A stretch of DNA of 64,000 bases from Shigella phage Ag3, in sequence record FJ373894, one strand, 5' to 3'. The notes under the pieces were generated by a model that made no database searches, was not told the origin of the DNA, and saw only the letters and a program-made list of their open reading frames with translations. A program made the translations under genes and the position numbers. The stretch's first letter is position 1. Each line of letters begins with the position of its first letter. This document shows, piece after piece, positions 1,967 through 62,742 of this stretch.

Positions 1967-1981
1967 ATATGGGGTATTTAG
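1967..1981 (-). promoter_or_regulatory. late-promoter-like motif CTAAATACCCCATAT
   Basis: Minus-strand motif about 20 nt upstream of helicase ATG. Confidence 0.35.
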
Positions 1982-5130: not shown

Positions 5131-5163
5131 GAAAATACCCCCATGGATGATGGGGGTATTTAG
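5131..5163 (-). promoter_or_regulatory. CTAAATACCCCC motif within an inverted repeat upstream of 4401..5129
   Basis: Arms AAATACCCCC / GGGGGTATTT around ATGGATGAT loop. Confidence 0.4.
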
Positions 5164-5167
5164 GTGA

Positions 5168-5335
5168 TCATGGCAGTTTGTAAACGAAGTTGGACCAGAA
5201 CTTCCGAGCGAACTTCTTGGCATAGACCTTCCAGTCGGCGTATTCGCCCTCCTTCAGGTCGTTGTAGGTCTCGAACCCTACTGCTCCCAGGAAGTACGCC
5301 GTGAAGATATAGCAGAACAGATTGACGACAAACAT
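5168..5335 (-). CDS. small hydrophobic protein (55 aa)
   Basis: Manually translated MFVVNLFCYIFTAYFLGAVGF...; GGAG RBS; below ORF-track length cutoff. Confidence 0.35.
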   Translation of the reverse strand: MFVVNLFCYIFTAYFLGAVGFETYNDLKEGEYADWKVYAKKFARKFWSNFVYKLP

Positions 5336-5376
5336 GATGTATCTCCGCTGTGTGAACTCAAATTATTTATGGTATG

Positions 5377-6184: not shown

Positions 6185-6466
6185 TTAGAACAAATGCTCG
6201 CCTTCCACATGGTATGCTAACACGCCGTCAGAACATTCAAAATACATGTTATCATATTCCCACAGAGCGGTGATTTCTTCACCCTGGCAAACTACCGAAA
6301 ACTTCGGCTGGCTGGCCTTAACTGGAAATTTTTCAGGGGAAGAGATTGGGGTGAATTTGGCATTTCTGACGGCCATACCAACAAATTGCTGCAATGTTAC
6401 TTTGTAACGAGAGTGGGTGATAGTACCAGCATTCAGAGCTTCGATCAATTGCGCTTTAGTTGTCAT
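6185..6466 (-). CDS. hypothetical protein (93 aa)
   Basis: ORF track. Confidence 0.45.
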   Translation of the reverse strand: MTTKAQLIEALNAGTITHSRYKVTLQQFVGMAVRNAKFTPISSPEKFPVKASQPKFSVVCQGEEITALWEYDNMYFECSDGVLAYHVEGEHLF

Positions 6467-6519
6467 GATATAGTTCCTTCATTTCAGAGTCAGTGTCGTA
6501 CTGCTTATGGAATGAAGTA

Positions 6520-6567
6520 TACGGGGTTTATTGAAGAAGTAAACCCCGTATTCAACTTTTTATTGAA
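6520..6567 (-). promoter_or_regulatory. 11-bp stem hairpin with TTCTTCAATAAA in loop/stem, plus second TTCAATAAA copy
   Basis: TACGGGGTTTA / TAAACCCCGTA stem; second half-site at 6559..6567. Confidence 0.4.
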
Positions 6568-6568
6568 T

Positions 6569-6805
6569 TTATTTAAAACGGTCAGGAAGGGTGTCGTGCA
6601 GTTCAGCTGACAGCACCAAGAACTTACCATCCGTCGTTGGGAAGCAATAGTCTTTATTGATGTGACGCAAGTGTTCAGCTACAGCTGCCACGCAGTCATC
6701 TGTCACGTCGGTCTTCTCACCAACCCACATGCTGGTTTTGGTGTTCAGCCTACCCTGGAATATAGTACCAGTCAGAGGGCTTGCGCCGATCTTTTTGATA
6801 ATCAT
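6569..6805 (-). CDS. hypothetical protein (78 aa)
   Basis: ORF track. Confidence 0.45.
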   Translation of the reverse strand: MIIKKIGASPLTGTIFQGRLNTKTSMWVGEKTDVTDDCVAAVAEHLRHINKDYCFPTTDGKFLVLSAELHDTLPDRFK

Positions 6806-6813
6806 GTTTGACC

Positions 6814-7254
6814 TCAGTTAATGCGGAACAGATGTGGATAACCACCAGGATGACCCTGACCCGTAACGAACACGTCGAACTTCGAACCCTTGATCAGGCC
6901 AGGCAGATTGCCAGAGTCCAGCAGTTCTCGGATCTGATCCATCGCCAGCATCCAGTTCTTAGCAGGTTCAGCTTCAGCCTCTCCACGATTGAGGACGAGT
7001 TCACCTTCAGAATAATACTTCCCGCTGTCCTTCATGTAGTACAGCTTGATATGGATATACTGAGGGGATGGGACCAAACGCCAGCCGTCATCAATCAGAT
7101 CCTGGCGATCATTATCCAGGGACTGGTAATCGATCTCACCAGACGCCAGACCATAGCTGCGCATGTAGCGGAACTTCTCAACACGGTCTTTCACGTCAGA
7201 GATGAAGAACTCCTTCGTGGCAGGACTGATGAAAATGTATTTCTCTTTTGACAT
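6814..7254 (-). CDS. hypothetical protein (146 aa)
   Basis: ORF track. Confidence 0.5.
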   Translation of the reverse strand: MSKEKYIFISPATKEFFISDVKDRVEKFRYMRSYGLASGEIDYQSLDNDRQDLIDDGWRLVPSPQYIHIKLYYMKDSGKYYSEGELVLNRGEAEAEPAKNWMLAMDQIRELLDSGNLPGLIKGSKFDVFVTGQGHPGGYPHLFRIN

Positions 7255-7266
7255 GATATAGATCCT

Positions 7267-7524
7267 TCAGTTCAAAATGGGATGTTCGTCGATATCGGAC
7301 TGCGTTGCAATCTCCCAGCGGACGATGTTCTCGGTTGTGATGAAATCACGGTTCAGGTGAGAGGCTGGCACATACACCATCGTGTCGACCATGAAGTAAC
7401 GCTGCTCGTTGTTCCAGGAGTCAACGTAAGCCTCAATGAGGCATACTTCGATCACTTCGCCTTTCGGCTTCTTCACAGTCTTTTTCAGGTACATGACGCA
7501 GCCCTCGGATAGTAGACGGGGCAA
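7267..7524 (-). CDS. hypothetical protein (85 aa)
   Basis: ORF track. Confidence 0.45.
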   Translation of the reverse strand: MPRLLSEGCVMYLKKTVKKPKGEVIEVCLIEAYVDSWNNEQRYFMVDTMVYVPASHLNRDFITTENIVRWEIATQSDIDEHPILN

Positions 7525-8239: not shown

Positions 8240-8479
8240 TTAACTCGGAATGTGTCTAGCGATCTTCTTGTTGATGTCGTCTAGCAGAATACTCATCGTA
8301 TCTTTGTAGACCTCTACAGCCAATATCGATTTGGAATTCATGAATGAGCTGAAGATACCAGATTTCAAACGCCTCAACTCCTTTTCCGCTTCTTCAATCT
8401 GTCCCATGATGTATTTCTTCGCGCCCTGTAGCTCTATAGCACGGATGTCTATTTCTTTATCGTTCATGATGGCCTCCAA
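8240..8479 (-). CDS. hypothetical protein (79 aa)
   Basis: ORF track; GGAGG RBS; directly downstream of capsid-gene terminator. Confidence 0.45.
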   Translation of the reverse strand: MEAIMNDKEIDIRAIELQGAKKYIMGQIEEAEKELRRLKSGIFSSFMNSKSILAVEVYKDTMSILLDDINKKIARHIPS

Positions 8480-27243: not shown

Positions 27244-29028
27244 TCAAGCGGAAGCATTCCATTGACCAGCATTGATCACCCATGTGCTCGTTACTTTTGA
27301 ATACACCATTTTCACGAGATTCATTTTCGTGGTGGCGGTGTTGGCACCAGTCACATCGACAGGGACACCCGCTATGCTCAATGAAGCAATGTTTGAACCT
27401 CTCAGTAAAAACGTCAGCTCCATACCATCATATGGCGTACCGGTAAATGCGATGTTGGAACCAGAAGAAACGTTTCTTCGATAGCACCCATAACCGCTGT
27501 TTATGTCGACAGAGTCAGTTGTGAGCTGTAATGGCAATTTTCCACGACTTAATTTACATGCCGTTACAACGCCGAGATCATCAATGCCTCGACTTGCGCC
27601 CCAACGTGCGATGTTGACTATGTGGCCAGTCACACCAGCGTCTTGCGCACCACCAATGTCGAAGAAACCTCCAGCCCTTGTTCCCCATATCGGCTCATCA
27701 ATTAAGCTGTTGGTGGAGTTGGTTATACTATACCCATGCGCGAGGGTTCCTTGGCTTGGGGAAGAGTGTGTACAATCTCGGAATGTGGCATCTTGAGAAC
27801 CACTGATGCGGACATCAGAGATACTATTGTTCTCATAATACATTCCATACACCTTAGTTCCCTTGGCCTGATCCAAGAATCCATATTTCGTGGTATTCTG
27901 GCTGAATCCGTTAACAAAACAGACTGCTTCTGTAGGGAATGTTGTGGTATAATCCCAAGAAGTCCCGCCGTCGGTGGAGTGTCTTACGATAATACCATAA
28001 TCCGGCATATCCACTTCCGGAGCACCAGAATAACCATCAAACCCTGTTATAACGATAGCATTGGCTCCGTTCTGTACTATTAACCGACTCGAACCAGCCC
28101 CACCACCGATAACCTCACAACCGTCTATCTTCAATCCATAACACAAAGTCCCTATCTCTATCCCGATATTATTAATGGCTGTGCCCATGTCCACCCACAT
28201 CATATCTAGATGACCATGGTTCCTCCAATATTTGGCTCTGAAAGCGACGCAACCCGTTTTACCATTCAACGATATCCTGATATTGTGTAATTTGCAGTTT
28301 CTCACTGCATTCCCACCAGAACGAGAAGGATCAATCGTGAGTACACCAACGTTGTTTTCACCAGCCAAGAATAATGCGCCGGAATGTGCATAAATTTCAG
28401 AGTTAGGATAAAACGCCAACGCCTGGCCAGTTACCGTATAGTTGCCAGGAAGAAACTGGAATGTCCCACCCTGGGATAATTTAGTTTGTATAAGAGACTG
28501 AGACATCGAAGGGTCGATAACAGTTAGACGATAAAACCCAGAGTATAACTCATCTCTTAATGCATCTGGATCCAATTTCACCCAGTTAGAACTTGACAAT
28601 CCACCAGTATTGGCAATGGTGCCACCAGCGTTTACAGATTTGGGTAAAGTCCCACCCCAACGGTAAAGACTTGTACCATCAGAAACGACTTCATTTCTTA
28701 CACGTATCGTGAACCCCGAATCGAAGTTTTCGACCAAAGTTACAAATTCCTTCCGAAGTACTGCAAGAACCCCCAGGTCTACGGTGCCCGTATTGTGTAC
28801 GAGAATGCCGTCTGCCATGCTGGTGATGGTAGCGCCAGCAGGCAGGTTAGAAGGCAGAGCATAGGAGCGCTGGGGCACCTTGTCGTAGATCACCTTATAA
28901 CCAGTCAGGGTGGATCCTGGTTTAGCATACAGAACCTCGGACTTCTTGCACCCGAACTTGCGTGCAATAGAGTCCTTGTTGGTCTCTTTCGAGACCGTAC
29001 CTTTCGGCTGTGAAAATTGCGGATTCAT
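27244..29028 (-). CDS. tailspike protein A (594 aa)
   Basis: N-terminus MNPQFSQPKG shared with 31692..33713; Gly/Asn/Thr-rich beta-helix-like repeats. Confidence 0.7.
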   Translation of the reverse strand: MNPQFSQPKGTVSKETNKDSIARKFGCKKSEVLYAKPGSTLTGYKVIYDKVPQRSYALPSNLPAGATITSMADGILVHNTGTVDLGVLAVLRKEFVTLVENFDSGFTIRVRNEVVSDGTSLYRWGGTLPKSVNAGGTIANTGGLSSSNWVKLDPDALRDELYSGFYRLTVIDPSMSQSLIQTKLSQGGTFQFLPGNYTVTGQALAFYPNSEIYAHSGALFLAGENNVGVLTIDPSRSGGNAVRNCKLHNIRISLNGKTGCVAFRAKYWRNHGHLDMMWVDMGTAINNIGIEIGTLCYGLKIDGCEVIGGGAGSSRLIVQNGANAIVITGFDGYSGAPEVDMPDYGIIVRHSTDGGTSWDYTTTFPTEAVCFVNGFSQNTTKYGFLDQAKGTKVYGMYYENNSISDVRISGSQDATFRDCTHSSPSQGTLAHGYSITNSTNSLIDEPIWGTRAGGFFDIGGAQDAGVTGHIVNIARWGASRGIDDLGVVTACKLSRGKLPLQLTTDSVDINSGYGCYRRNVSSGSNIAFTGTPYDGMELTFLLRGSNIASLSIAGVPVDVTGANTATTKMNLVKMVYSKVTSTWVINAGQWNASA

Positions 29029-29198
29029 AAGAATCTCCTGTTGTTTATTCTCGATGGTATGCGCAACGGCTTATTTAGTTGTCGGCGAGTCCAGGTATGC
29101 CGCCACCGAATATGTTGCTGGTGAACGCGCAACTGGATTGGCTTATCGAACAGACTGGAACAAAGCGCGTTATCAGGTCTGACATGGACGAATGCGAC

Positions 29199-31519: not shown

Positions 31520-31534
31520 ATATGGGGTATTTAG
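31520..31534 (-). promoter_or_regulatory. late-promoter-like CTAAATACCCCATAT upstream of tailspike B
   Basis: Identical 15-mer to 1967..1981. Confidence 0.4.
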
Positions 31535-31691: not shown

Positions 31692-33713
31692 TTAGCTTAG
31701 ATTTAGACTAAACCCACCATTTGACTTGCTTATCATACCACGAACAGTTTTGTTGCCTCCACCGCTGTATTCGTCATATTGCATTTTGACATTTACAGCG
31801 ATGTTGGCGTCAATTGAATCCCATCCAGCAAAGTTCAGGAACACATTTCCGCTAGTGTCTACTGATATTGTTGGCGTGGCTGCTGTTCCTTTTGTGAACG
31901 TACTTTGCACTGAACCTTCCATTGTGCTTGCTGCTGGAGTTGTACCCATCACTAATGTTCCCTGCAATCGCCCATGCCATGCGCTAGAAACACCTGAAAC
32001 CGGGGAGTTGGCTACAACATCAACCGTCCACAAACTTACGTTTCGGTACGTACTCACAGTGCCAATTTTAAAATTCCTGGAATCTCCAGCGGCTTTAATG
32101 AACAGCATTGAACCCGTAGCGCATTTACTTGAATCAGGCGCTGCACCTGCAGATGCAAAATCAGAGAATGTGCAATTATCAAATTTTACTTTGCTGTAAT
32201 CGGTAGCTGTTAACTTAGCTTCTGGTGCATTAACATTTTCGAATTTAACTCCGCCATAGTTCGCCACTGCGCCTGTAAGCTGATTGGTATTGACATATAC
32301 ATCACCACCATTCAGCTTTCGGACCACCAGGTCACGACAGATAAATCCATTAATAGAATCGCCTGACGTCCAGTTATCGTTGGTGTTGAAGTTAAAGAAC
32401 CATGCATGGTTACCAGAGTCTCCGCCGCCAAGTTCTATGCGTCCGGTGATCACAATATTTGAATAACCATAGCCACGCGGGTTATTATCTGCTACAGACT
32501 CGTCAATCAGCTTTGTTGTGCCAATAACACTTCCCCAATTCCCCCCGACGACATCATAATTGATGGTTATGTTACGCATCAGCCCGGCAATCATCGTCTC
32601 TGTTATGGTGCTGTCCCAACCCCAATCCAGCCATATTGGTGCTACGCGGTACGGAAGCGTGTAACGCCCTGTGCTACGATATTTGTAATTGACTGTAAGA
32701 TTAGATATTTGATTATCCATGTTACCGTTATAGAAATACATTTTGATTGGCGTACCCTGTTGAGTATCAATGGCATCAACAGTTATCTGGCCACCACCAC
32801 AATTGTTCGTCAGAAAGAAATCACGACGGCAACCATTATTAACTGTATGGATGTCAACTACACCAACATTACCAAGGAGATGTGGATAGCGAGTGTCATT
32901 GTTCACACTGCGAGCAAAGAGATTTTTTACATTAGTACATTCGTAGCCTTGATAGCACTTGTTAGTCTTGCCAATAAATGTGAAATTATTGCATCCATTC
33001 AGGCGCAGTGGGGTTAGTCCGCGTTTGTCATCACCGACATACTCAAGGGTGGAAGAAGCATCCACTTCAAACACCAGATTGGTGATATTCGTCAGGTCGA
33101 ACACGCGCGTCAGGTCAAATGCACCGGAGTAAAGCAGGGTGTCCCTGATAACCAGTCCGCGAATTTCAAGGCAGTCCATATTACTTAAAGTAAAGATGGT
33201 ACTAAGACCGCCACTACCAGGACCAAAGTTCACAACCTGGTCAAAAATAATTTCAACACTTTTTAGGTTGTTAGATGTGATGTAAGACTGCAAAGATTGC
33301 AGTGTACCGAATCGGGAGAAGTAAAGGACACGTTTGTTTACAACTGAATCAAGAGCATCTTTTACTGTAGATGATTCGTATCCGACAAGACTTGCCTTTT
33401 CACCCGTCAGCAGTTCAGAACCCAGCGTTTTGCTTTCAACGCTAACCCATGCTGAAGATGATACACCACCAGTTGATTGTGGTGTTGAGTTTTTGTTCAC
33501 AGTTTTGGGCAAAGACCCACCCCAGGTATAACACTGGGCACCATTGATATGCCACACGGCGTCGGTTGCAGTCGTCACAGTAGCACCGTCTTCAAAACTA
33601 CCTTCGACCAAATTAAGACCTAAATCCGACAAAGCCCGCCGCCACAATTCACGCGGGTTTTTGTTGATTTCTTTGGCTGTTGAACCTTTCGGCTGATTGA
33701 ATTGCGGATTCAT
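31692..33713 (-). CDS. tailspike protein C (673 aa)
   Basis: N-terminal module shared with 27244..29028 (MNPQFNQPKG, WGGSLPK, TGGVSSS); beta-helix-like repeats. Confidence 0.7.
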   Translation of the reverse strand: MNPQFNQPKGSTAKEINKNPRELWRRALSDLGLNLVEGSFEDGATVTTATDAVWHINGAQCYTWGGSLPKTVNKNSTPQSTGGVSSSAWVSVESKTLGSELLTGEKASLVGYESSTVKDALDSVVNKRVLYFSRFGTLQSLQSYITSNNLKSVEIIFDQVVNFGPGSGGLSTIFTLSNMDCLEIRGLVIRDTLLYSGAFDLTRVFDLTNITNLVFEVDASSTLEYVGDDKRGLTPLRLNGCNNFTFIGKTNKCYQGYECTNVKNLFARSVNNDTRYPHLLGNVGVVDIHTVNNGCRRDFFLTNNCGGGQITVDAIDTQQGTPIKMYFYNGNMDNQISNLTVNYKYRSTGRYTLPYRVAPIWLDWGWDSTITETMIAGLMRNITINYDVVGGNWGSVIGTTKLIDESVADNNPRGYGYSNIVITGRIELGGGDSGNHAWFFNFNTNDNWTSGDSINGFICRDLVVRKLNGGDVYVNTNQLTGAVANYGGVKFENVNAPEAKLTATDYSKVKFDNCTFSDFASAGAAPDSSKCATGSMLFIKAAGDSRNFKIGTVSTYRNVSLWTVDVVANSPVSGVSSAWHGRLQGTLVMGTTPAASTMEGSVQSTFTKGTAATPTISVDTSGNVFLNFAGWDSIDANIAVNVKMQYDEYSGGGNKTVRGMISKSNGGFSLNLS

Positions 33714-33759
33714 GTGAATCTCCTGTTGTTCTCATGAAGCCCCGAAGGGGCTTTATCAA

Positions 33760-36822: not shown

Positions 36823-36863
36823 AAATACCCCTAAATGTGTTCGTTTCATCTAGGGGTATTTAG
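36823..36863 (-). promoter_or_regulatory. CTAAATACCCCTAG motif plus inverted repeat upstream of tailspike D
   Basis: Arms AAATACCCCTA / TAGGGGTATTT; downstream arm supplies GGGG RBS. Confidence 0.4.
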
Positions 36864-38940: not shown

Positions 38941-40702
38941 AACGCACCTCCGGCTCCACAGTTACAGCACCGATGCGAAGCACCTGGTTCTGTGTGGCCT
39001 GAATGTTCTGGTCAAGACCGTCTGGAGACACGATGATAGTCACTCCCTCGGTGTTGTAGTTGGATACTGTGATGCGCTGGAGTTCAACAACGCCATTCAC
39101 ATAATCAACCGTTCCAACAGCTTGTACCAGATATTCCTTGGTCGTGTCTGCTGTACTCACCTTGTACATATTCAGGACACCGCTGACATCGCGCATGTAG
39201 TAAGTGAAGTCGACCTCGGCCGGAAGCGGCTTAAACCCACTGATACGCACAGAACCAGATGCAATTGAGCGTCCATAATCGAACGTGAAGCTGTCCAGTA
39301 CCCCATAGTCTGGCTTGAAGTGGCGCTTGTACTTCACGGAAGCGATGTTTGACGCTATCGATCTGTCCATGTCGGTGATGGCCGACTGCAACTGCTCTTT
39401 ATCGAACAGTTCGTCGAATCCTTCCAGGTTCCCCAAGCCCCAGTTGACAACACCGTTCTTTACGACTGTCTTCAACTGCTCTTCGGTGTAGGCCGTGGAA
39501 GTCGGATCCCAGAACACGCGGGTGGTGACATCAACATAAGTCAGTTCGGCGTCGACAATCTTGGGTGTGATCGTACCCACATTGTACTTGTCCAAAGTCG
39601 CCACGATATCTGCCTTCTCAGCGTCCGACAGCGTCTCACCAACAGAAGGTACTACAGCAATGTAAACGTATCCAGAGTCGGGCGGAGATAGCGTGTCGCC
39701 GCCATATGCTTTGGCGCGGGAGACGTTGGAGAACAGACGCTCGGCCAACACAGCATAATCGACTTCGGCTACCGCCGCACCCTCAGCCTGATAAGCCAGC
39801 GGAGCAAGGCGCTTGATATCCTCAATGCTCTCTGGGTCTGTACCGCCAGAAGAACGTTCTGACACCAGCTCAACATCTACAAGGTTGAAGCCCCCGATGG
39901 AAGACGCAGAGGACAAGGCAGTGATGTCATTGCCGTCTGCACCAGATGTCTCCAGATACTGAAGGTACACGACGTTCCCGTCTTCTACTCGCTTGCAGAT
40001 ATAACCGTCGCCGAATTCAAACGTGTACATCCCGTCCAACCCCAGCTCAACGAAGTAGAGTTGTGCATACTGGCTCAAATCGAACGGGCTGACATATCGT
40101 GAGAAGGTAGACCGCACGTCGGAGGTCTCAGATTCTTGCACCTGCACCACCATGTGGTTGATGTCCACGGAAGAAGACGGGATCACATAGGTGGAGATCG
40201 CGCTGCCTTCCACGTCATAGGACTTGTACAGCCAGTTGCCCTGCACGAGTTTGATGTTCTCGAACTTGTAAGAGCCGTCTACAAGAGAGGCGCTCACAGG
40301 TTGGTCAACCGTGAAGTTGTAGGATTTGCCATCCTTCGCTCCAATGAACATCGCCCGGCGGTCCATTACAATCGTATCTGGAGCCGTGCTGGCGTCATAT
40401 GGAGTGACTGTGACGTTTGCGTACAGGAACGCCGCCTGGTGGTTGTGAGGGGTGTAAGACAAGAACCCCGCCGCCAGACCGACATTAGAACGCTGTTGTG
40501 CAGAGTGAAGATGGCTTTCGCCATTCAGCATGTTCTGCATGAACCCGATAGAGTTGGCATCCGAGGCCAAGATACGCACGATTGCACTGAGACCAGAACC
40601 TTCAAAGTCATAATCCTTGAAAGTTGGATCAGCTTTCATGCGCTTCTTGATAAGATACTCGAAAGCCCTGACATCGAGTGAAGGAACTGTTTGTGTGGCC
40701 AT
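38921..40702 (-). CDS. baseplate wedge protein (gp6/J-like?)
   Basis: ORF track 38921..40717; ATG at 40702 with GGAG RBS; first gene of late operon. Confidence 0.5.
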   Translation of the reverse strand: MATQTVPSLDVRAFEYLIKKRMKADPTFKDYDFEGSGLSAIVRILASDANSIGFMQNMLNGESHLHSAQQRSNVGLAAGFLSYTPHNHQAAFLYANVTVTPYDASTAPDTIVMDRRAMFIGAKDGKSYNFTVDQPVSASLVDGSYKFENIKLVQGNWLYKSYDVEGSAISTYVIPSSSVDINHMVVQVQESETSDVRSTFSRYVSPFDLSQYAQLYFVELGLDGMYTFEFGDGYICKRVEDGNVVYLQYLETSGADGNDITALSSASSIGGFNLVDVELVSERSSGGTDPESIEDIKRLAPLAYQAEGAAVAEVDYAVLAERLFSNVSRAKAYGGDTLSPPDSGYVYIAVVPSVGETLSDAEKADIVATLDKYNVGTITPKIVDAELTYVDVTTRVFWDPTSTAYTEEQLKTVVKNGVVNWGLGNLEGFDELFDKEQLQSAITDMDRSIASNIASVKYKRHFKPDYGVLDSFTFDYGRSIASGSVRISGFKPLPAEVDFTYYMRDVSGVLNMYKVSTADTTKEYLVQAVGTVDYVNGVVELQRITVSNYNTEGVTIIVSPDGLDQNIQATQNQVLRIGAVTVEPEVRYVQRSQ

Positions 40703-48135: not shown

Positions 48136-48149
48136 CTAAATACCCCATA
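48136..48149 (+). promoter_or_regulatory. late-promoter-like CTAAATACCCCATA (copy 1)
   Basis: Followed by GGGGTATCTATG. Confidence 0.35.
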
Positions 48150-48235: not shown

Positions 48236-48250
48236 CTAAATACCCCATAT
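48236..48250 (+). promoter_or_regulatory. late-promoter-like CTAAATACCCCATAT (copy 2)
   Basis: 25 nt upstream of ATG 48275 with GAGGAA RBS. Confidence 0.4.
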
Positions 48251-48763: not shown

Positions 48764-49132
48764 GAACTCGCCCGTGTGGGCTGTGAATCTCATGGTAACG
48801 GTTTCGGTTCGCTCATCCTTTCGGAATTCGAATTTCAGACCTTCCTGGAGCATCCTTTCTCCCAGCAACTTCTTGAACTTTTTCATTTCGTGCTCTGACG
48901 GATAATGAGGACATCTGTAAGCCTGGTGGAATGCCGTGAACATATTGTCAAAGGTATACCCGCAAACGACGTATGCCATATCGTCAATTTCAACGCCTCG
49001 TGACGCCTCGAGCATAAGGGCTTTCTTCACTTCTTTGACAAAGATGTCGACAGCCTTTTCAACTTTGCTCATAGCATTCCAGGCCTGAGCCTGGGTTATG
49101 GTTGCTTGTAGTTCCTGTGCGAAGTTGCTCAT
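48761..49132 (-). CDS. hypothetical protein (123 aa)
   Basis: ORF track. Confidence 0.5.
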   Translation of the reverse strand: MSNFAQELQATITQAQAWNAMSKVEKAVDIFVKEVKKALMLEASRGVEIDDMAYVVCGYTFDNMFTAFHQAYRCPHYPSEHEMKKFKKLLGERMLQEGLKFEFRKDERTETVTMRFTAHTGEF

Positions 49133-49515
49133 TTCACTTCTCCTTCACGGTAGTCCGGGTGCACCACAGAGTTCTTCGCCTGACCATTCAAGAACTCTTC
49201 CACGATTTGTTTGGCTTCTGCAATGGAAGAAGCGCGCTTGTTCAACACACGCCATTCGAATCCCCAGCGCCCGTCTTCTTTCTGATCCCATTTGGCGATG
49301 TGAAGTTTAATGACGAGATCAGTCGCGTTTCGGTGAACAGACGGCTCATAGCTTTCTTCGTGGGACATATAGGCCGCACAAGCGCCGTTCTTGTACTCAG
49401 CTGCTGGCCATGCGCGGCGCTCAAAGGAGCGATAACGCCCCGTTGGTTCAGGGGCGACACGCCAGGTCAATTTGATCTTGGCTTCCAAACGAGCAGGAGT
49501 TTTGGGCATAGTCAT
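49129..49515 (-). CDS. hypothetical protein (128 aa)
   Basis: ORF track; AAGGA RBS. Confidence 0.5.
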   Translation of the reverse strand: MTMPKTPARLEAKIKLTWRVAPEPTGRYRSFERRAWPAAEYKNGACAAYMSHEESYEPSVHRNATDLVIKLHIAKWDQKEDGRWGFEWRVLNKRASSIAEAKQIVEEFLNGQAKNSVVHPDYREGEVK

Positions 49516-49563
49516 GATATAGTCCTTCAGTTCAAAGTAAGCCCCCGAAGGGGCTTGGTCATA

Positions 49564-50121
49564 TTAAAGACGGGAATCCAGCCAGGCGTTCTTTTCGTTC
49601 TGCCACTCCCAAGCGGCCTGACCGCCTGCCATGATCACTTCCAGGGAAGGAGTATTGTCGTCCTCGCCGCCGTGAAGGTCAGGGTCGAAGCCGTCGTCTT
49701 CAGGATCGTCTTCGCACTCATTCTGATAAGCGGAATATTCGATGTAATGGGCTTCGGCTTCACAATCCATGTCACCCAGAGCTTCCTCGAGGGACATTTT
49801 ACCTTCGGCGATCAGTTCGGCAGTCGCGTCGTCCAGGCCTGCGTCTTTCGCTTCAACGAACAGTTCGTGACGTTTCTGGAAGAAAAAGAACTGCATGGCT
49901 TCAATGCGTGAGTCGAAGAACTCTTGGCGAGGAGCAGTGATTTCACGACCATCAACCTTGCTTACCATCACGACGCGAGAACCGTACTCAACCAGGAAGC
50001 GGCCACCTTTCACTGGGTTGGAACCGTCAATTGTGCCCAGAGTGGTGATTGCGCGGCCTTCTTCAGTCCCGAACATTACGGTTTTGCCTGATTTGGACTG
50101 AGCGATAATCTCGATTGCCAT
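49564..50121 (-). CDS. hypothetical protein (about 185 aa)
   Basis: ORF track 49564..50301; internal ATG at 50121 with AAGGAAATACATC RBS. Confidence 0.5.
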   Translation of the reverse strand: MAIEIIAQSKSGKTVMFGTEEGRAITTLGTIDGSNPVKGGRFLVEYGSRVVMVSKVDGREITAPRQEFFDSRIEAMQFFFFQKRHELFVEAKDAGLDDATAELIAEGKMSLEEALGDMDCEAEAHYIEYSAYQNECEDDPEDDGFDPDLHGGEDDNTPSLEVIMAGGQAAWEWQNEKNAWLDSRL

Positions 50122-50182
50122 GATGTATTTCCTTCTCTTCAGATTGTTGTTTGTTCGTACTACAATTAGAAGTATACGCCAG

Positions 50183-50212
50183 TTATTGAAGAAGTAAACT
50201 TTATTCAATAAA
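50183..50212. promoter_or_regulatory. inverted repeat TTATTGAAGAAG...TTATTCAATAA
   Basis: Both orientations of the TTCAATAA half-site within 30 nt. Confidence 0.35.
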
Positions 50213-50216
50213 TATT

Positions 50217-50429
50217 TTAATAAATTTTGAACTCTGCTCCCTTGTACGTCGCCGACCCTCGTTCTATGAGACCGTCTGGGACAATCACCTTTGTCGGCCA
50301 ACCGCCATCGGGAGCCTTAACAGTCAGGCGTGTCTTGTGATCACCCAGCTGTGTCTGTTCATAGATCCTTCCGCGCACTATCGTCGCCCCGCCCTGGGTG
50401 ACGAGCAATCTCTTGTTTACCACTTTCAT
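50217..50429 (-). CDS. hypothetical protein (70 aa)
   Basis: ORF track. Confidence 0.4.
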   Translation of the reverse strand: MKVVNKRLLVTQGGATIVRGRIYEQTQLGDHKTRLTVKAPDGGWPTKVIVPDGLIERGSATYKGAEFKIY

Positions 50430-55312: not shown

Positions 55313-55618
55313 GTGCAAGAACAATCCAAGTTTGGGGAAACCCCAGACAAGCGTTCCGGTGATAGCGATATGGATGGCGTGATTATCCATGTCAACAACT
55401 TTATTCGCCAGCAGGAGACTCCGACTCCTATCGGCGCAGCCAAGGCTCTCCATGACGTACTGGTGGAGATCGGTCAGCGCTCTGAAGCGGATGAAATCTT
55501 CTATAACTTCGACGACCAGTATAAAGTGAAGTTTGAAGAGAATGGTCGTCCGCAGGTTGCTGTATTCTGGGCACCTTGGATGGGCGGCGTGAGCTGGCGT
55601 ATTGAGGATGCTATGTAA
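55313..55618 (+). CDS. hypothetical protein (101 aa)
   Basis: AGGAGGA RBS. Confidence 0.45.
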   Translation: MQEQSKFGETPDKRSGDSDMDGVIIHVNNFIRQQETPTPIGAAKALHDVLVEIGQRSEADEIFYNFDDQYKVKFEENGRPQVAVFWAPWMGGVSWRIEDAM

Positions 55619-56304
55619 TGCTGTCGCTCTACCTGATCACGAATCTCGTCAATCATAAATTCTATATCGGTGTCACTTCAGAACCGGATAGGCGGTTGGC
55701 TGAGCATAAGTGTGGTCAGGGGAGCATTGCATTACAACGAGCGTTCAAGAAATATGGTGAAGACCAGTTCACGTTTGAAGTTCTGTTCCGAGGGAAGGAA
55801 TCAGTTATCCTTGAGATAGAGTCTGAACTGGTCTGTCAGGAGATCCTTGACTCTGGGTGGTGCTACAATATGGTCGTCGGTGGTGGGAAGCCTCCATTGG
55901 CCACGCCTGATTCATCCGCAAAGAGTGCTGCAACCCGCAAACGTTTGATCGCTGAGGGTAAGATCAAGCCACCTCCCCGCATATCGGCTGAGTCACAAAG
56001 AAGGGGTGGTGAAACCAGAAGGAAACTGATATCCGAGGGAGTGATAAAGAAGCCATTACCTCCCTCTCCAGAAGCCCAGAGGCGAGCAGGTGAAACAAGG
56101 AAACAGTTGCATGCTCTTGGCCTGATAGACATTGGTCCTGGCCGCGATGAAACGATTTACAAATGGCAGCACAAAGATGGTCGCATTGTTGAGTTAAGAA
56201 GATGCGATATGGAACTTCAATATGGCCTCCCTTCTGGTAATATAACGAATCTCTTGAAAGGTAGGGCTAAAACATGTCTCGGTTGGAGAATAATGAATGG
56301 CTAA
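55618..56304 (+). CDS. GIY-YIG homing endonuclease (Seg/I-TevI-like)
   Basis: LYLITNLVNHKFYIGVTS...RRLAEH matches GIY-YIG; Arg-rich C-terminal repeats. Confidence 0.8.
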   Translation: MLSLYLITNLVNHKFYIGVTSEPDRRLAEHKCGQGSIALQRAFKKYGEDQFTFEVLFRGKESVILEIESELVCQEILDSGWCYNMVVGGGKPPLATPDSSAKSAATRKRLIAEGKIKPPPRISAESQRRGGETRRKLISEGVIKKPLPPSPEAQRRAGETRKQLHALGLIDIGPGRDETIYKWQHKDGRIVELRRCDMELQYGLPSGNITNLLKGRAKTCLGWRIMNG

Positions 56305-59384: not shown

Positions 59385-59400
59385 TCTGATTGCGATTGCG

Positions 59401-59412
59401 TTCTTCAATAAA
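59401..59412 (+). promoter_or_regulatory. conserved TTCTTCAATAAA motif
   Basis: Also at 62321..62332; reverse orientation at 6527..6538 and 50183..50194. Confidence 0.35.
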
Positions 59413-59450
59413 GGGGAATGGGTTAATATTAGCCCGTTCCCCTTTCTTTT
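59413..59450 (+). terminator. rho-independent terminator
   Basis: GGGGAATGGG...CCCGTTCCCC 10-bp stem then TTTCTTTTT. Confidence 0.65.
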
Positions 59451-59466
59451 TGCAAGGAAATACATC

Positions 59467-59679
59467 ATGGCAATGAAACGAATTGAAGATATGTCCCTAC
59501 TGGATATGGAAGCGACTTTTGGTGATTACTTTGAGTCCACTCCGAAACAAAAAGACCCTCTGGTTGGCCGTCTGGTGGTTTCTGAAGCGTTCGCACAGAA
59601 AGTTCGCGAAGGTCTTCCGCCTGAATATGGGCGCTTCCGTAATGGCGCTTCCGTTATCGTCATGGGTGAATCTAAATGA
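59467..59679 (+). CDS. hypothetical protein (70 aa)
   Basis: AAGGAAATACATC RBS. Confidence 0.45.
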   Translation: MAMKRIEDMSLLDMEATFGDYFESTPKQKDPLVGRLVVSEAFAQKVREGLPPEYGRFRNGASVIVMGESK

Positions 59680-62317: not shown

Positions 62318-62320
62318 TCG

Positions 62321-62332
62321 TTCTTCAATAAA
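62321..62332 (+). promoter_or_regulatory. conserved TTCTTCAATAAA motif
   Basis: Immediately after stop of 61892..62317, before terminator. Confidence 0.35.
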
Positions 62333-62333
62333 A

Positions 62334-62367
62334 GGGGATAGGGTATTATTGCTCTATCCCCTTTTTC
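62334..62367 (+). terminator. rho-independent terminator
   Basis: GGGGATAG...CTATCCCC stem then TTTTTC. Confidence 0.7.
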
Positions 62368-62742
62368 ATGGACAAGAACATGACAGACAAGCCAAGAAAG
62401 ATTGCGATTGTTGGAGCCGGACTGGGCTCTCGGTTGATCAAAGTTCTACTGGAAGAGAAGCTACCAGGAGTTGAGGTTGTGCACATCACTCCCGACGATA
62501 TTCCGAAGCGTCGGAGTGAGCCTGGTGAGCGTATGATCATCTGTGACGAGCTACAACAGATGCCGGACACCAAGGCTCTGCTTGTCAAGCTGAAACAACG
62601 AGACACGGAGATGTCTGCTGAATGTGATATGCGGGAGTTCTATGCCGACCGCCGCTATCAAGAACCCACACGCCTGCGTGGAGCCGCTGCTCACAAACGT
62701 CAGGCCACTAAAATGAAGAACAAACGCCGGAGCAAACGCTGA
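62368..62742 (+). CDS. hypothetical basic protein (124 aa)
   Basis: ORF track; follows terminator. Confidence 0.5.
   Translation: MDKNMTDKPRKIAIVGAGLGSRLIKVLLEEKLPGVEVVHITPDDIPKRRSEPGERMIICDELQQMPDTKALLVKLKQRDTEMSAECDMREFYADRRYQEPTRLRGAAAHKRQATKMKNKRRSKR

What the first reader, a model, noticed from the sequence alone, without database searches (positions are those of the whole stretch)
50101..50135. Identical 21-nt translation initiation region on two unrelated genes
AAGGAAATACATCATGGCAAT precedes and spans the start of the plus-strand gene at 59467 and of the minus-strand gene 49564..50121. An identical RBS-to-fourth-codon sequence on unrelated genes suggests a shared translational operator, as with RegA or gp43 autoregulation in T4, or a recent duplication of a leader cassette.
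Basis: seen in the sequence. Interest (0 to 1): 0.4.

Follow-up and report, generated by a model that had tools for sequence, protein, structure and literature searches.

The report
Repeated ribosome-binding module in phage
The identical 21 bases are real, but they are mostly one copy-variant of a short ribosome-binding module that this phage family (Ackermannviridae) re-uses in front of about 15-20 small accessory genes, often as the end of a repeated promoter/terminator cassette at which genes get swapped between related phages; a shared translational repressor site is possible but nothing supports it yet.

Summary
Observation confirmed: AAGGAAATACATCATGGCAAT occurs exactly twice (50114-50134 minus, 59454-59474 plus). 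Each copy covers the Shine-Dalgarno sequence, spacer, ATG and five further bases of a real, non-paralogous gene.

The window is an Agtrevirus-like Ackermannviridae phage. The 21-mer splits into two parts.
- 16 nt (AAGGAAATACATCATG) are a lineage-specific translation-initiation module, consensus TTTGAAATGAAGGAAMTAYATCATG. It sits in front of about 18 mostly small hypothetical genes in the close relative P46FS4, which carries three exact copies of the 16-mer.
- 5 nt (GCAAT) belong to each gene's own N-terminus and match by coincidence.

At gene A the module ends a ~110-nt promoter-leader cassette that is present 1-3 times per genome in 281 phage records and is better conserved than the genes it drives. 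At gene B the module follows a repeated terminator hairpin.

Homology between related phages breaks at, or within a few bases past, the ATG at four module-bearing loci. This matches the PeSL "mobile regulatory cassettes" described in T4-type phages.

A RegA homologue exists in the relative. However, orthologues of known T4 RegA targets lack the module, and the leaders are unstructured. The operator idea is therefore untested and not favoured; the "leader cassette" idea is partly right, but the cassette is ancient, not recent. Modest interest.

The parts
50114..50134 (-). 21-mer copy A: SD AAGGA, 8-nt spacer AATACATC, ATG, GCA AT
59454..59474 (+). 21-mer copy B: same sequence in the same register on the ATG
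49564..50121 (-). Gene A, 185 aa, acidic C-terminus, phrog_4823, function unknown. Its N-terminal ~72 codons are replaced in SKML-39 and EspM4VN.
59467..59679 (+). Gene B, 70 aa, phrog_5099, function unknown
50116..50226 (-). Promoter-leader-start cassette of gene A. AT-rich upstream with inverted repeat TTATTGAA/TTCAATAA; -35 (G)TTTACT at 50198-50193; spacer box TTCTTCAATAA at 50183-50193; -10 TATACT at 50176-50171; CA-rich unstructured leader; TIR module.
6461..6571 (-). Paralogous full-length cassette in front of gene 6185-6466. The hairpin ACGGGG..CCCCGT brackets the -35 and spacer. Its TIR variant is AAGGAACTATATCATG.
59399..59445 (+). TTCTTCAATAAA box plus strong G/C hairpin terminator (59410-59445) directly 5' of copy B. 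No promoter is detected between it and the SD.
62319..62365 (+). Second copy (74% identical) of the TTCTTCAATAAA-plus-hairpin terminator module
49511..49541 (-). TIR-only module (TTTGAACTGAAGGACTATATCATG) of gene 49129-49515, placed behind a hairpin. Homology with P46FS4, SKML-39 and MK-13 stops at the ATG.
7249..7287 (-). TIR-only module (GAAGGATCTATATCATG) of gene 6814-7254
5333..5348 (-). Related start region GCGGAGATACATCATG of gene 5168-5335
8404..8420 (-). Partial copy GAAGAAATACATCATGG at an in-frame internal ATG of ORF 8240-8467. Either an alternative start or chance.

Best explanation
The 21-mer is 16 nt of a lineage-specific translation-initiation module plus 5 nt of coincidentally identical coding sequence. 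The module has the consensus (T)TTGAA(A/C)TG-AAGGAA-(A/C)TA(T/C)ATC-ATG: a strong SD, an 8-nt A/U-rich spacer and an unstructured context. It drives efficient translation of small accessory, mostly early-type genes of Ackermannviridae. It forms the 3' end of repeated regulatory cassettes. At gene A the cassette is a T4-early-like sigma-70 promoter (GTTTAC-N17-TATACT) with a conserved spacer box and leader. At gene B it is a repeated terminator hairpin. The copies are near-identical and lie exactly at gene starts. They therefore also act as the places where genes are inserted, deleted or replaced by recombination between related phages, as described for PeSL cassettes of T4-type phages. What is shown: the repeat family, its conservation, its position at starts, and the breakpoints at or within a few bases past the ATG. 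What is inferred: high translation efficiency, promoter and terminator activity, and recombination through the module as opposed to selection merely keeping junctions at gene borders.
For: 1) Full-length cassette paralogues match with nhmmer E 1e-31, 8e-27 and 2e-24 in P46FS4, and 5e-32 and 9e-25 in the window (alignment).
2) P46FS4 has a third exact 16-mer (19-mer AAGGAAATACATCATGGCA) before ORF28.
3) The 30-nt module gives about 18 hits in P46FS4. By my own cross-check against the P46FS4 annotation tables, 15 lie at annotated starts, and almost all are small hypothetical genes. TAYATCATG occurs 7 times in the window against 0.94 expected, 6 of them at called starts.
4) Core genes lack the module.
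5) The non-coding upstream regions are more conserved than the coding sequences. For A: 99-100% versus 86-91%, and 91-92% versus 79% in Taipeivirus. For B: 97% versus 88-89%. The A cassette is found in 281 records at 661 places, and is at least 99% identical in 177 records.
6) Homology breakpoints fall at or within a few bases past the ATG of module genes: 6464 and 49512 versus P46FS4 (the only 2 of about 28 breakpoints within 3 nt of a start); 50119 versus SKML-39 and EspM4VN; 59470 versus AV101.
7) In Se-B and PhiSH19 a 63-aa ORF is inserted between AAGGA and gene B. Gene B then uses GAGGTCCTATATC-ATGGCAATG. So GCAAT belongs to gene B and the upstream 16 nt are the exchangeable part. In Taipeivirus gene A reads ATGGGCATC.
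8) The leaders fold less well than shuffled controls (z +0.9 and +1.6).
9) The PeSL definition includes SD and ATG at the 3' end, and crossovers were mapped between the -10 and the SD/ATG (PMC2839356).
Against: Site B shares only the 21 nt plus the TTCTTCAATAA box and a hairpin with the cassette family, and no promoter was detected. Its membership by descent, rather than convergence, is therefore not proven. The exact 16-mer is also used by about 60 unrelated gene families in other phages, showing that convergence on this sequence is possible. Junctions at gene starts could partly reflect selection for expressible genes rather than recombination within the module. No expression or recombination data exist for these elements.
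Confidence: 0.6

Rival explanations
1. The module, and hence the 21-mer, is the mRNA operator of a phage translational repressor. The repressor would be the RegA homologue or another RNA-binding protein, co-regulating about 15-20 accessory genes.
For: A bona fide RegA homologue lies after the gp45-44-62 genes in P46FS4, just beyond the window's left end. The site overlaps the AUG, is 71% A+U, has a 5' A-run and is unstructured. These are the general properties of RegA sites (PMC3014915). The spacer and the bases upstream of the SD are conserved beyond what SD plus ATG require.
Against: Start regions of orthologues of T4 RegA targets (45, 44, 62, regA, rIIA, rIIB, dexA) lack the module. The 21-mer resembles the T4 SELEX and natural sites poorly; it has no AAAAUU(A/G)U tract. 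Gene B's start region is exchanged or mutated in Kuttervirus with no parallel change at A.
Confidence: 0.13
2. Independent convergence or chance: both genes simply evolved the same near-optimal strong ribosome-binding site, with no common origin and no cassette role.
For: The 16-mer precedes ORFs of at least 50 aa (or ORFs that run off the contig end) in 106 of 129 IMG/VR occurrences with about 60 different N-termini. The full 21-mer starts the gp32-like SSB gene of unrelated ~40% GC phages. 20 of 75 window genes have ATC at -3..-1, and 19 of 75 have GC at +4,+5. From memory, not a tool result: it resembles the T7 gene 10 RBS.
Against: Expected identical pairs are 1e-5 per window and 1e-4 per genome under the start-region PWM. 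Yet P46FS4 has three exact 16-mers, and the similarity of A, ORF28, ORF81 and the 6466 cassette extends about 95 nt upstream. Breakpoints cluster at module ATGs.
Confidence: 0.2
3. A recent duplication or gene conversion copied the leader from one gene to the other in this phage.
For: Exact identity with sharp borders.
Against: Both copies are present and identical in Agtrevirus and some Kuttervirus. Site B is also identical in Limestonevirus. In Taipeivirus site A keeps the 16-mer but differs at +4..+8. Site B varies in Det7, SeF6a and AV101 without co-variation at A.
Confidence: 0.02

Closest known systems
PeSL (promoter-early stem-loop) mobile regulatory cassettes of T4-type phages (Arbiol et al. 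2010, PMC2839356; Comeau et al. 2014, PMC4122927)
   Same: Repeated intergenic cassettes with AT-rich upstream, a sigma-70-like early promoter (TTTAC-type -35), a GGGG..CCCC stem-loop, and SD plus ATG at the 3' end. They sit next to small ORFans. Insertions and replacements between close relatives are bounded by the cassettes, with crossovers between the -10 and the ATG.
   Different: Found here in Ackermannviridae, for which the held literature reports no early promoters (PMC3184105; a 2024 review does not mention promoters). The transcribed leader and the SD-spacer-ATG part are themselves highly conserved. That part also occurs alone behind terminators, as at site B, without a recognisable promoter. 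Mini-circles and promoter or terminator activity are untested.
T4 RegA translational operators
   Same: They overlap the initiator AUG, are A+U-rich and unstructured, and occur on several unrelated early mRNAs. A RegA homologue is encoded by the phage family.
   Different: No sequence match to known RegA sites. The orthologues of T4 RegA target genes lack the motif. Binding is untested.
T4 gp43 and gp32 autogenous operators
   Same: Located at the translation start of a phage early gene. The same 21-mer happens to start a gp32-like SSB gene in unrelated metagenomic phages.
   Different: There is no hairpin or pseudoknot operator. Genes A and B are neither polymerase nor SSB. The Ackermannviridae pol and SSB start regions are different.
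Extended consensus ribosome-binding sites of phage early genes (Liebig and Ruger 1989, T4; cited from memory and from the reference list seen)
   Same: A phage-specific start-region consensus longer than SD plus AUG, shared by many early genes.
   Different: Here the consensus is about 25 nt, limited to a subset of accessory genes, and coincides with mosaic junctions.

Membership tests
PeSL-type mobile regulatory cassette | Repeated intergenic motif, several copies per genome | tested here: met
   Two full copies in the window, three strong plus about four weak in P46FS4, and 661 places in 281 records.
PeSL-type mobile regulatory cassette | Sigma-70-like early promoter with AT-rich upstream region | tested here: inconclusive
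   Met by sequence at site A (TTTACT-16-TATACT) and at the 6466 cassette. Not met at site B, where no promoter was found between the terminator and the SD. Activity not testable.
PeSL-type mobile regulatory cassette | Stem-loop (G-run/C-run) acting as terminator or attenuator within or next to the promoter | tested here: met
   Site B has a 16-bp hairpin plus T-run. The 6466 cassette has ACGGGG..CCCCGT around the -35 and spacer. P46FS4 ORF81 has GGGGCTTTCGCCCC. Site A has only an AT-rich inverted repeat.
PeSL-type mobile regulatory cassette | SD and start codon of the downstream gene at the 3' end | tested here: met
   All copies end in AAGGAA-N7-ATG of a called or annotated gene.
PeSL-type mobile regulatory cassette | Flanks ORFans; indels and replacements between close relatives are bounded by the cassette | tested here: met
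   Breakpoints at 6464, 49512, 50119 and 59470, and an ORF insertion in Se-B and PhiSH19.
PeSL-type mobile regulatory cassette | Recombination between copies gives mini-circles; promoter and terminator active in vivo | not testable with these tools
   Needs PCR and reporter assays as in PMC2839356.
RegA translational operator | Phage encodes RegA | tested here: met
   P46FS4 ORF43 matches PF01818 at 118.7 bits, E 1.9e-34. The gene lies just outside the window.
RegA translational operator | Site at or overlapping the AUG, A+U-rich, unstructured | tested here: met
   15 of 21 bases are A/U. The leaders fold no better than shuffles.
RegA translational operator | Resembles known RegA-bound sequences, or is shared with orthologues of known targets | tested here: not met
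   The start regions of gp45, gp44, gp62, regA, rIIA, rIIB and dexA are different. The site does not resemble aaAAUUGUUAUGUAA.
RegA translational operator | RegA binds the site and represses translation | not testable with these tools
   Needs a binding or toeprint assay.
gp43 / gp32 autogenous operator | Structured RNA element (hairpin with UAAC-type loop, or pseudoknot) 5' of the regulator's own gene | tested here: not met
   No stable structure at either start region. The genes are not pol or SSB.

The most novel reading that the evidence does not exclude
The ~25-30-nt module (TTTGAAATGAAGGAAMTAYATCATG) is a dedicated cis-element with two roles. First, it is the operator of a post-transcriptional regulon, under the RegA homologue or an unknown RNA-binding protein, that controls about 15-20 accessory early genes. 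Second, it is a preferred recombination 'landing pad' that lets Ackermannviridae capture and exchange ORFans already wired for expression and regulation.
Probability: 0.12. Interest if true: 0.6.

Novelty: new member of a known kind. Interest (0 to 1): 0.35.

Why it matters
Early gene control in Ackermannviridae (ViI-like phages used in biocontrol and in engineered reporter phages) is essentially undescribed. The CBA120 paper states that early promoters could not be identified.

The cassettes found here give concrete candidates: early promoters (GTTTAC-TTCTTCAATAA-N6-TATACT), a conserved leader and a portable strong ribosome-binding module. They also indicate where accessory genes are naturally swapped, which is useful for choosing insertion sites and expression signals in phage engineering.

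The result extends the PeSL 'mobile regulatory cassette' idea beyond the T4-type phages proper. It is not a new principle.

Tried and rejected
- Paralogy of the two genes: rejected (BLASTP E = 8, different PHROGs).
- Pfam gave nothing for either protein.
- Known RNA families: Rfam finds only three tRNAs in the window and nothing at either site.
- Structured operator: no fold better than shuffles apart from the terminator hairpin.
- Promoter hidden in the site-B hairpin (loop TAATAT): I considered it, but no acceptable -35 is present and the scan does not call one.
- Concerted evolution of the two copies: rejected, because site B varies (Det7 and SeF6a C>A, AV101 A>T, Se-B and PhiSH19 a different TIR) while site A is constant. 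A scan for the Det7 variant in IMG/VR found nothing.
- RegB-type cleavage site (GGAGRAYARAA): the module has GGAA and does not fit; not pursued.
- The resemblance to the T7 gene 10 RBS is from memory only.
- I ran no further search on genes A and B, because their function does not bear on the repeat.

Full report
OBSERVATION

AAGGAAATACATCATGGCAAT occurs exactly twice in the window, at 50114-50134 (minus strand) and 59454-59474 (plus strand). No additional site appears even with three mismatches, against 0.01 expected. Both copies place the ATG in the same register. They start the ORFs 49564-50121(-) (185 aa) and 59467-59679(+) (70 aa). The identity stops immediately outside the 21 nt.

The proteins are unrelated: BLASTP E = 8, phrog_4823 versus phrog_5099, and no Pfam hit.

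CONTEXT

The window is an Ackermannviridae genome of the Agtrevirus type. The closest records are P46FS4, ChubbyThor, SKML-39 and MK-13. Gene A lies next to the DNA polymerase gene, and gene B lies 9.3 kb away in a run of small genes.

Gene A is preceded by a T4-early-like sigma-70 promoter (TTTACT-16-TATACT) and a CA-rich leader. Gene B follows directly on a strong intrinsic terminator (59410-59445) with no detectable promoter.

IS IT CHANCE?

I built a position-specific model from 75 called start regions. It gives P = 5e-9 for a pair to be identical over the 21 positions. That is 1.3e-5 expected pairs in the window and about 1e-4 per genome.

The pairwise identity distribution has a tail of similar start regions at 16-18 of 21 matches. 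This points to a sub-family, AAGGA-NN-TAYATC-ATG. TAYATCATG occurs 7 times against 0.94 expected, and six of those are at called starts.

THE REPEAT FAMILY

Aligning the upstream regions showed that the gene A leader and the leader of gene 6185-6466(-) are homologous over about 95 nt. The shared layout is: AT-rich region, GTTTAC, TTCTTCAATAA, N6, TATACTTC, leader, CTGAAATG, AAGGAA(A/C)TA(C/T)ATC, ATG.

I assembled the P46FS4 genome from annotated stretches. A profile of this cassette finds three strong copies there, before ORF28, ORF81 and gene A (E 1e-31, 8e-27, 2e-24), plus weaker ones. It finds two strong copies in the window.

P46FS4 has a third exact copy of the 16-mer AAGGAAATACATCATG before ORF28; it extends to the 19-mer ...GGCA.

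A 30-nt profile of the 3' part (TTTGAAATGAAGGAAMTAYATCATG) finds about 18 sites in P46FS4. By my own cross-check against the P46FS4 annotation tables, 15 are at annotated starts, and nearly all belong to small hypothetical genes plus denV. Core genes lack the module: gp45, gp44, gp62, regA, rIIA, rIIB, SSB, polymerase, uvsX, gp41, primase, nrdA, td, ligase and the major capsid protein.

With the 112-nt gene A cassette as query, 281 phage records match at 661 places, which is 1-3 copies per genome. In 177 records the match is at least 99% identical.

CONSERVATION

The non-coding regions are better conserved than the genes they serve.
- Gene A, upstream 100 nt: 99-100% identical to P46FS4, MK-13, AV101 and Det7, where the coding sequence is 86-91%.
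- Gene A in Taipeivirus: 91-92% upstream versus 79% coding.
- Gene B, upstream 70 nt: 97% versus 88-89% coding in Det7 and LIMEstone1.

DECOMPOSING THE 21-MER

In Taipeivirus gene A keeps the 16-mer but reads ATGGGCATC. In SKML-39 and EspM4VN the same leader is followed by ATGAAAATT and a replaced N-terminal domain.

Gene B keeps ATGGCAATG whatever precedes it:
- AAGGAAATACATC in Agtrevirus, Limestonevirus and some Kuttervirus.
- AAGGAAATAAATC in Det7 and SeF6a.
- GAGGTCCTATATC in Se-B and PhiSH19, where a 63-aa ORF is inserted between the AAGGA and gene B.
- AAGAGGATTTCACT in AV101.

So 16 nt are the exchangeable module and the last 5 nt (GCAAT) belong to each gene. Within the module sub-family, identical 16-mers are expected at 0.4-0.8 pairs and four pairs are seen. 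The additional 5-nt match has P of about 0.005 per pair. It is a modest coincidence, helped by the frequent Ala second codon: 19 of 75 genes have GC at +4,+5.

MOSAIC JUNCTIONS

Comparing the window with P46FS4 gives about 28 homology breakpoints. Only two lie within 3 nt of a start codon, at 6464 and 49512, and both belong to module-bearing genes (the third such hit, 36820, is an assembly artefact).
- At 6466 the 86-nt cassette is 95% conserved, while the two downstream ORFs are unrelated in the two phages.
- Homology to SKML-39 and EspM4VN stops at 50119, the G of gene A's ATG, and resumes 216 nt later.
- Homology to AV101 stops at 59470, the base after gene B's ATG, where a foreign 65-aa ORF is inserted.

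Four of the five module-bearing loci in the window thus show a junction at, or within a few bases past, the ATG in at least one relative.

COMPARISON WITH KNOWN SYSTEMS

This anatomy matches the PeSL cassettes of T4-type phages. Those have an AT-rich region, a sigma-70 early promoter, a GGGG..CCCC stem-loop, and SD and ATG at the 3' end. They are associated with ORFans, and crossovers were mapped between the -10 and the SD/ATG (PMC2839356; PMC4122927).

For Ackermannviridae I found no description. The CBA120 paper states that early promoters could not be identified, and a 2024 review does not mention promoters.

Differences from PeSLs:
- The leader and the SD-spacer-ATG part are themselves conserved.
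- That part also occurs alone behind terminators, as at site B, without a promoter.

THE OPERATOR HYPOTHESIS

A genuine RegA homologue (PF01818, E 1.9e-34) lies after gp45-44-62 in P46FS4, just beyond the window's left end. The module has the general properties of RegA sites: it overlaps the AUG, is A+U-rich and is unstructured.

Three points count against it. The orthologues of T4 RegA targets lack the module. It does not resemble known RegA ligands. Site B changes without matching changes at site A. I rate this possible but not favoured, at about 0.13. Only binding or repression assays can decide.

CONVERGENCE

The exact 16-mer is used widely elsewhere. Of 129 occurrences, 106 precede ORFs of at least 50 aa or ORFs that run off the contig end, with about 60 different N-termini.

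The full 21-mer also starts a gp32-like SSB gene (phrog_1192) in unrelated ~40% GC metagenomic phages that have a different leader. So the sequence is a generally good start region, and convergence cannot be excluded for site B. Convergence does not explain the ~95-nt homology among the cassette copies, or three exact copies in one genome.

VERDICT

The identical 21-mer is real and non-random. It is the visible tip of a repeated regulatory module rather than a special two-gene operator. The most likely function is strong, unstructured translation initiation for accessory genes. Its secondary role is as a homology patch and junction for modular gene exchange. This is a new member of a known kind (PeSL-like cassettes) in a phage family where they had not been described. 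Interest is modest.

Noticed in passing
window 50183-50193(-), 6528-6538(-), 59401-59411(+), 62321-62331(+): The 11-mer TTCTTCAATAA occurs 4 times exactly, and 8 times at up to 1 mismatch against 1.2 expected. Twice it is the spacer of GTTTAC-N17-TATACT promoters, and twice it lies directly 5' of G/C terminator hairpins. In P46FS4 it is also repeatedly adjacent to hairpins. Why one box serves both contexts is unexplained.
   Followed up: partly
window 1971-1981(-), 5153-5163(-), 31524-31534(-), 36853-36863(-), 48136-48146(+), 48236-48246(+): CTAAATACCCC occurs 6 times exactly (7 at up to 1 mismatch, against 0.44 expected), each 20-40 nt upstream of structural or late-type gene starts. It is a likely late-promoter motif of this phage family, and it differs from T4's TATAAATA.
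   Followed up: partly
IMG/VR loci L011, L012, L014-L017, L020, L021, L024, L025, L027-L030, L035, L037, L038: The same 21-mer (23 nt including GA) starts a conserved 334-338-aa gp32-like SSB gene (MAMTLAEIRAKLQ...) in unrelated ~38-43% GC metagenomic phages. It sits behind a different leader with a GTGCCTA/TAGGCAC-type hairpin. T4 gene 32 is autoregulated at its start region, so this conserved leader may merit its own look.
   Followed up: partly
P46FS4 record 39443-39907 (L042), just left of window position 1: A RegA (PF01818) homologue of 154 aa lies in the T4-like gene order 45-44-62-regA. [quoted passage not shown]
   Followed up: partly
window 49564-50121(-): Gene A encodes a very acidic C-terminal half (DDPEDDGFDPDLHGGEDD...) that is conserved, fused to a variable N-terminal domain with two alleles (MAIEII... 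and MKILAE...). It is driven by one of the best-conserved non-coding stretches of the family. This could be a host-takeover or DNA-mimic type early protein; function unknown.
   Followed up: no
window 55618-56304(+): A 228-aa ORF is annotated as SegD-like homing endonuclease in P46FS4 and AV101 but is absent from SKML-39, MK-13, EspM4VN and Det7. My codon-usage-based gene caller rejected it, consistent with a foreign mobile gene.
   Followed up: no
window 8404-8420(-): GAAGAAATACATCATGG lies at an in-frame internal ATG (codon 21) of ORF 8240-8467. It is conserved in P46FS4 ORF23. It could be an internal or alternative start, or chance.
   Followed up: no
P46FS4 record 80739-80832 (L043): The annotated TTG start of ORF98 (80755) lies inside a cassette-like promoter (GGGGCTTTACTTTTG). 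A module-type start (GGGAACTATATCATG) 72 nt downstream and in frame (80827) looks like the real start.
   Followed up: no
window 28976-29045 and 33661-33730: Two tail-spike-region genes (27244-29028 and 31692-33713, minus strand) share their start region and first codons (ACAGGAGATTC..ATGAATCCGCAATT). These are paralogous N-termini, as known for Ackermannviridae tailspikes.
   Followed up: no
window 62365-62372(+): ORF 62368-62742 starts at an ATG immediately after the terminator T-run (CCCCTTTTTCATGGAC) with no recognisable SD.
   Followed up: no
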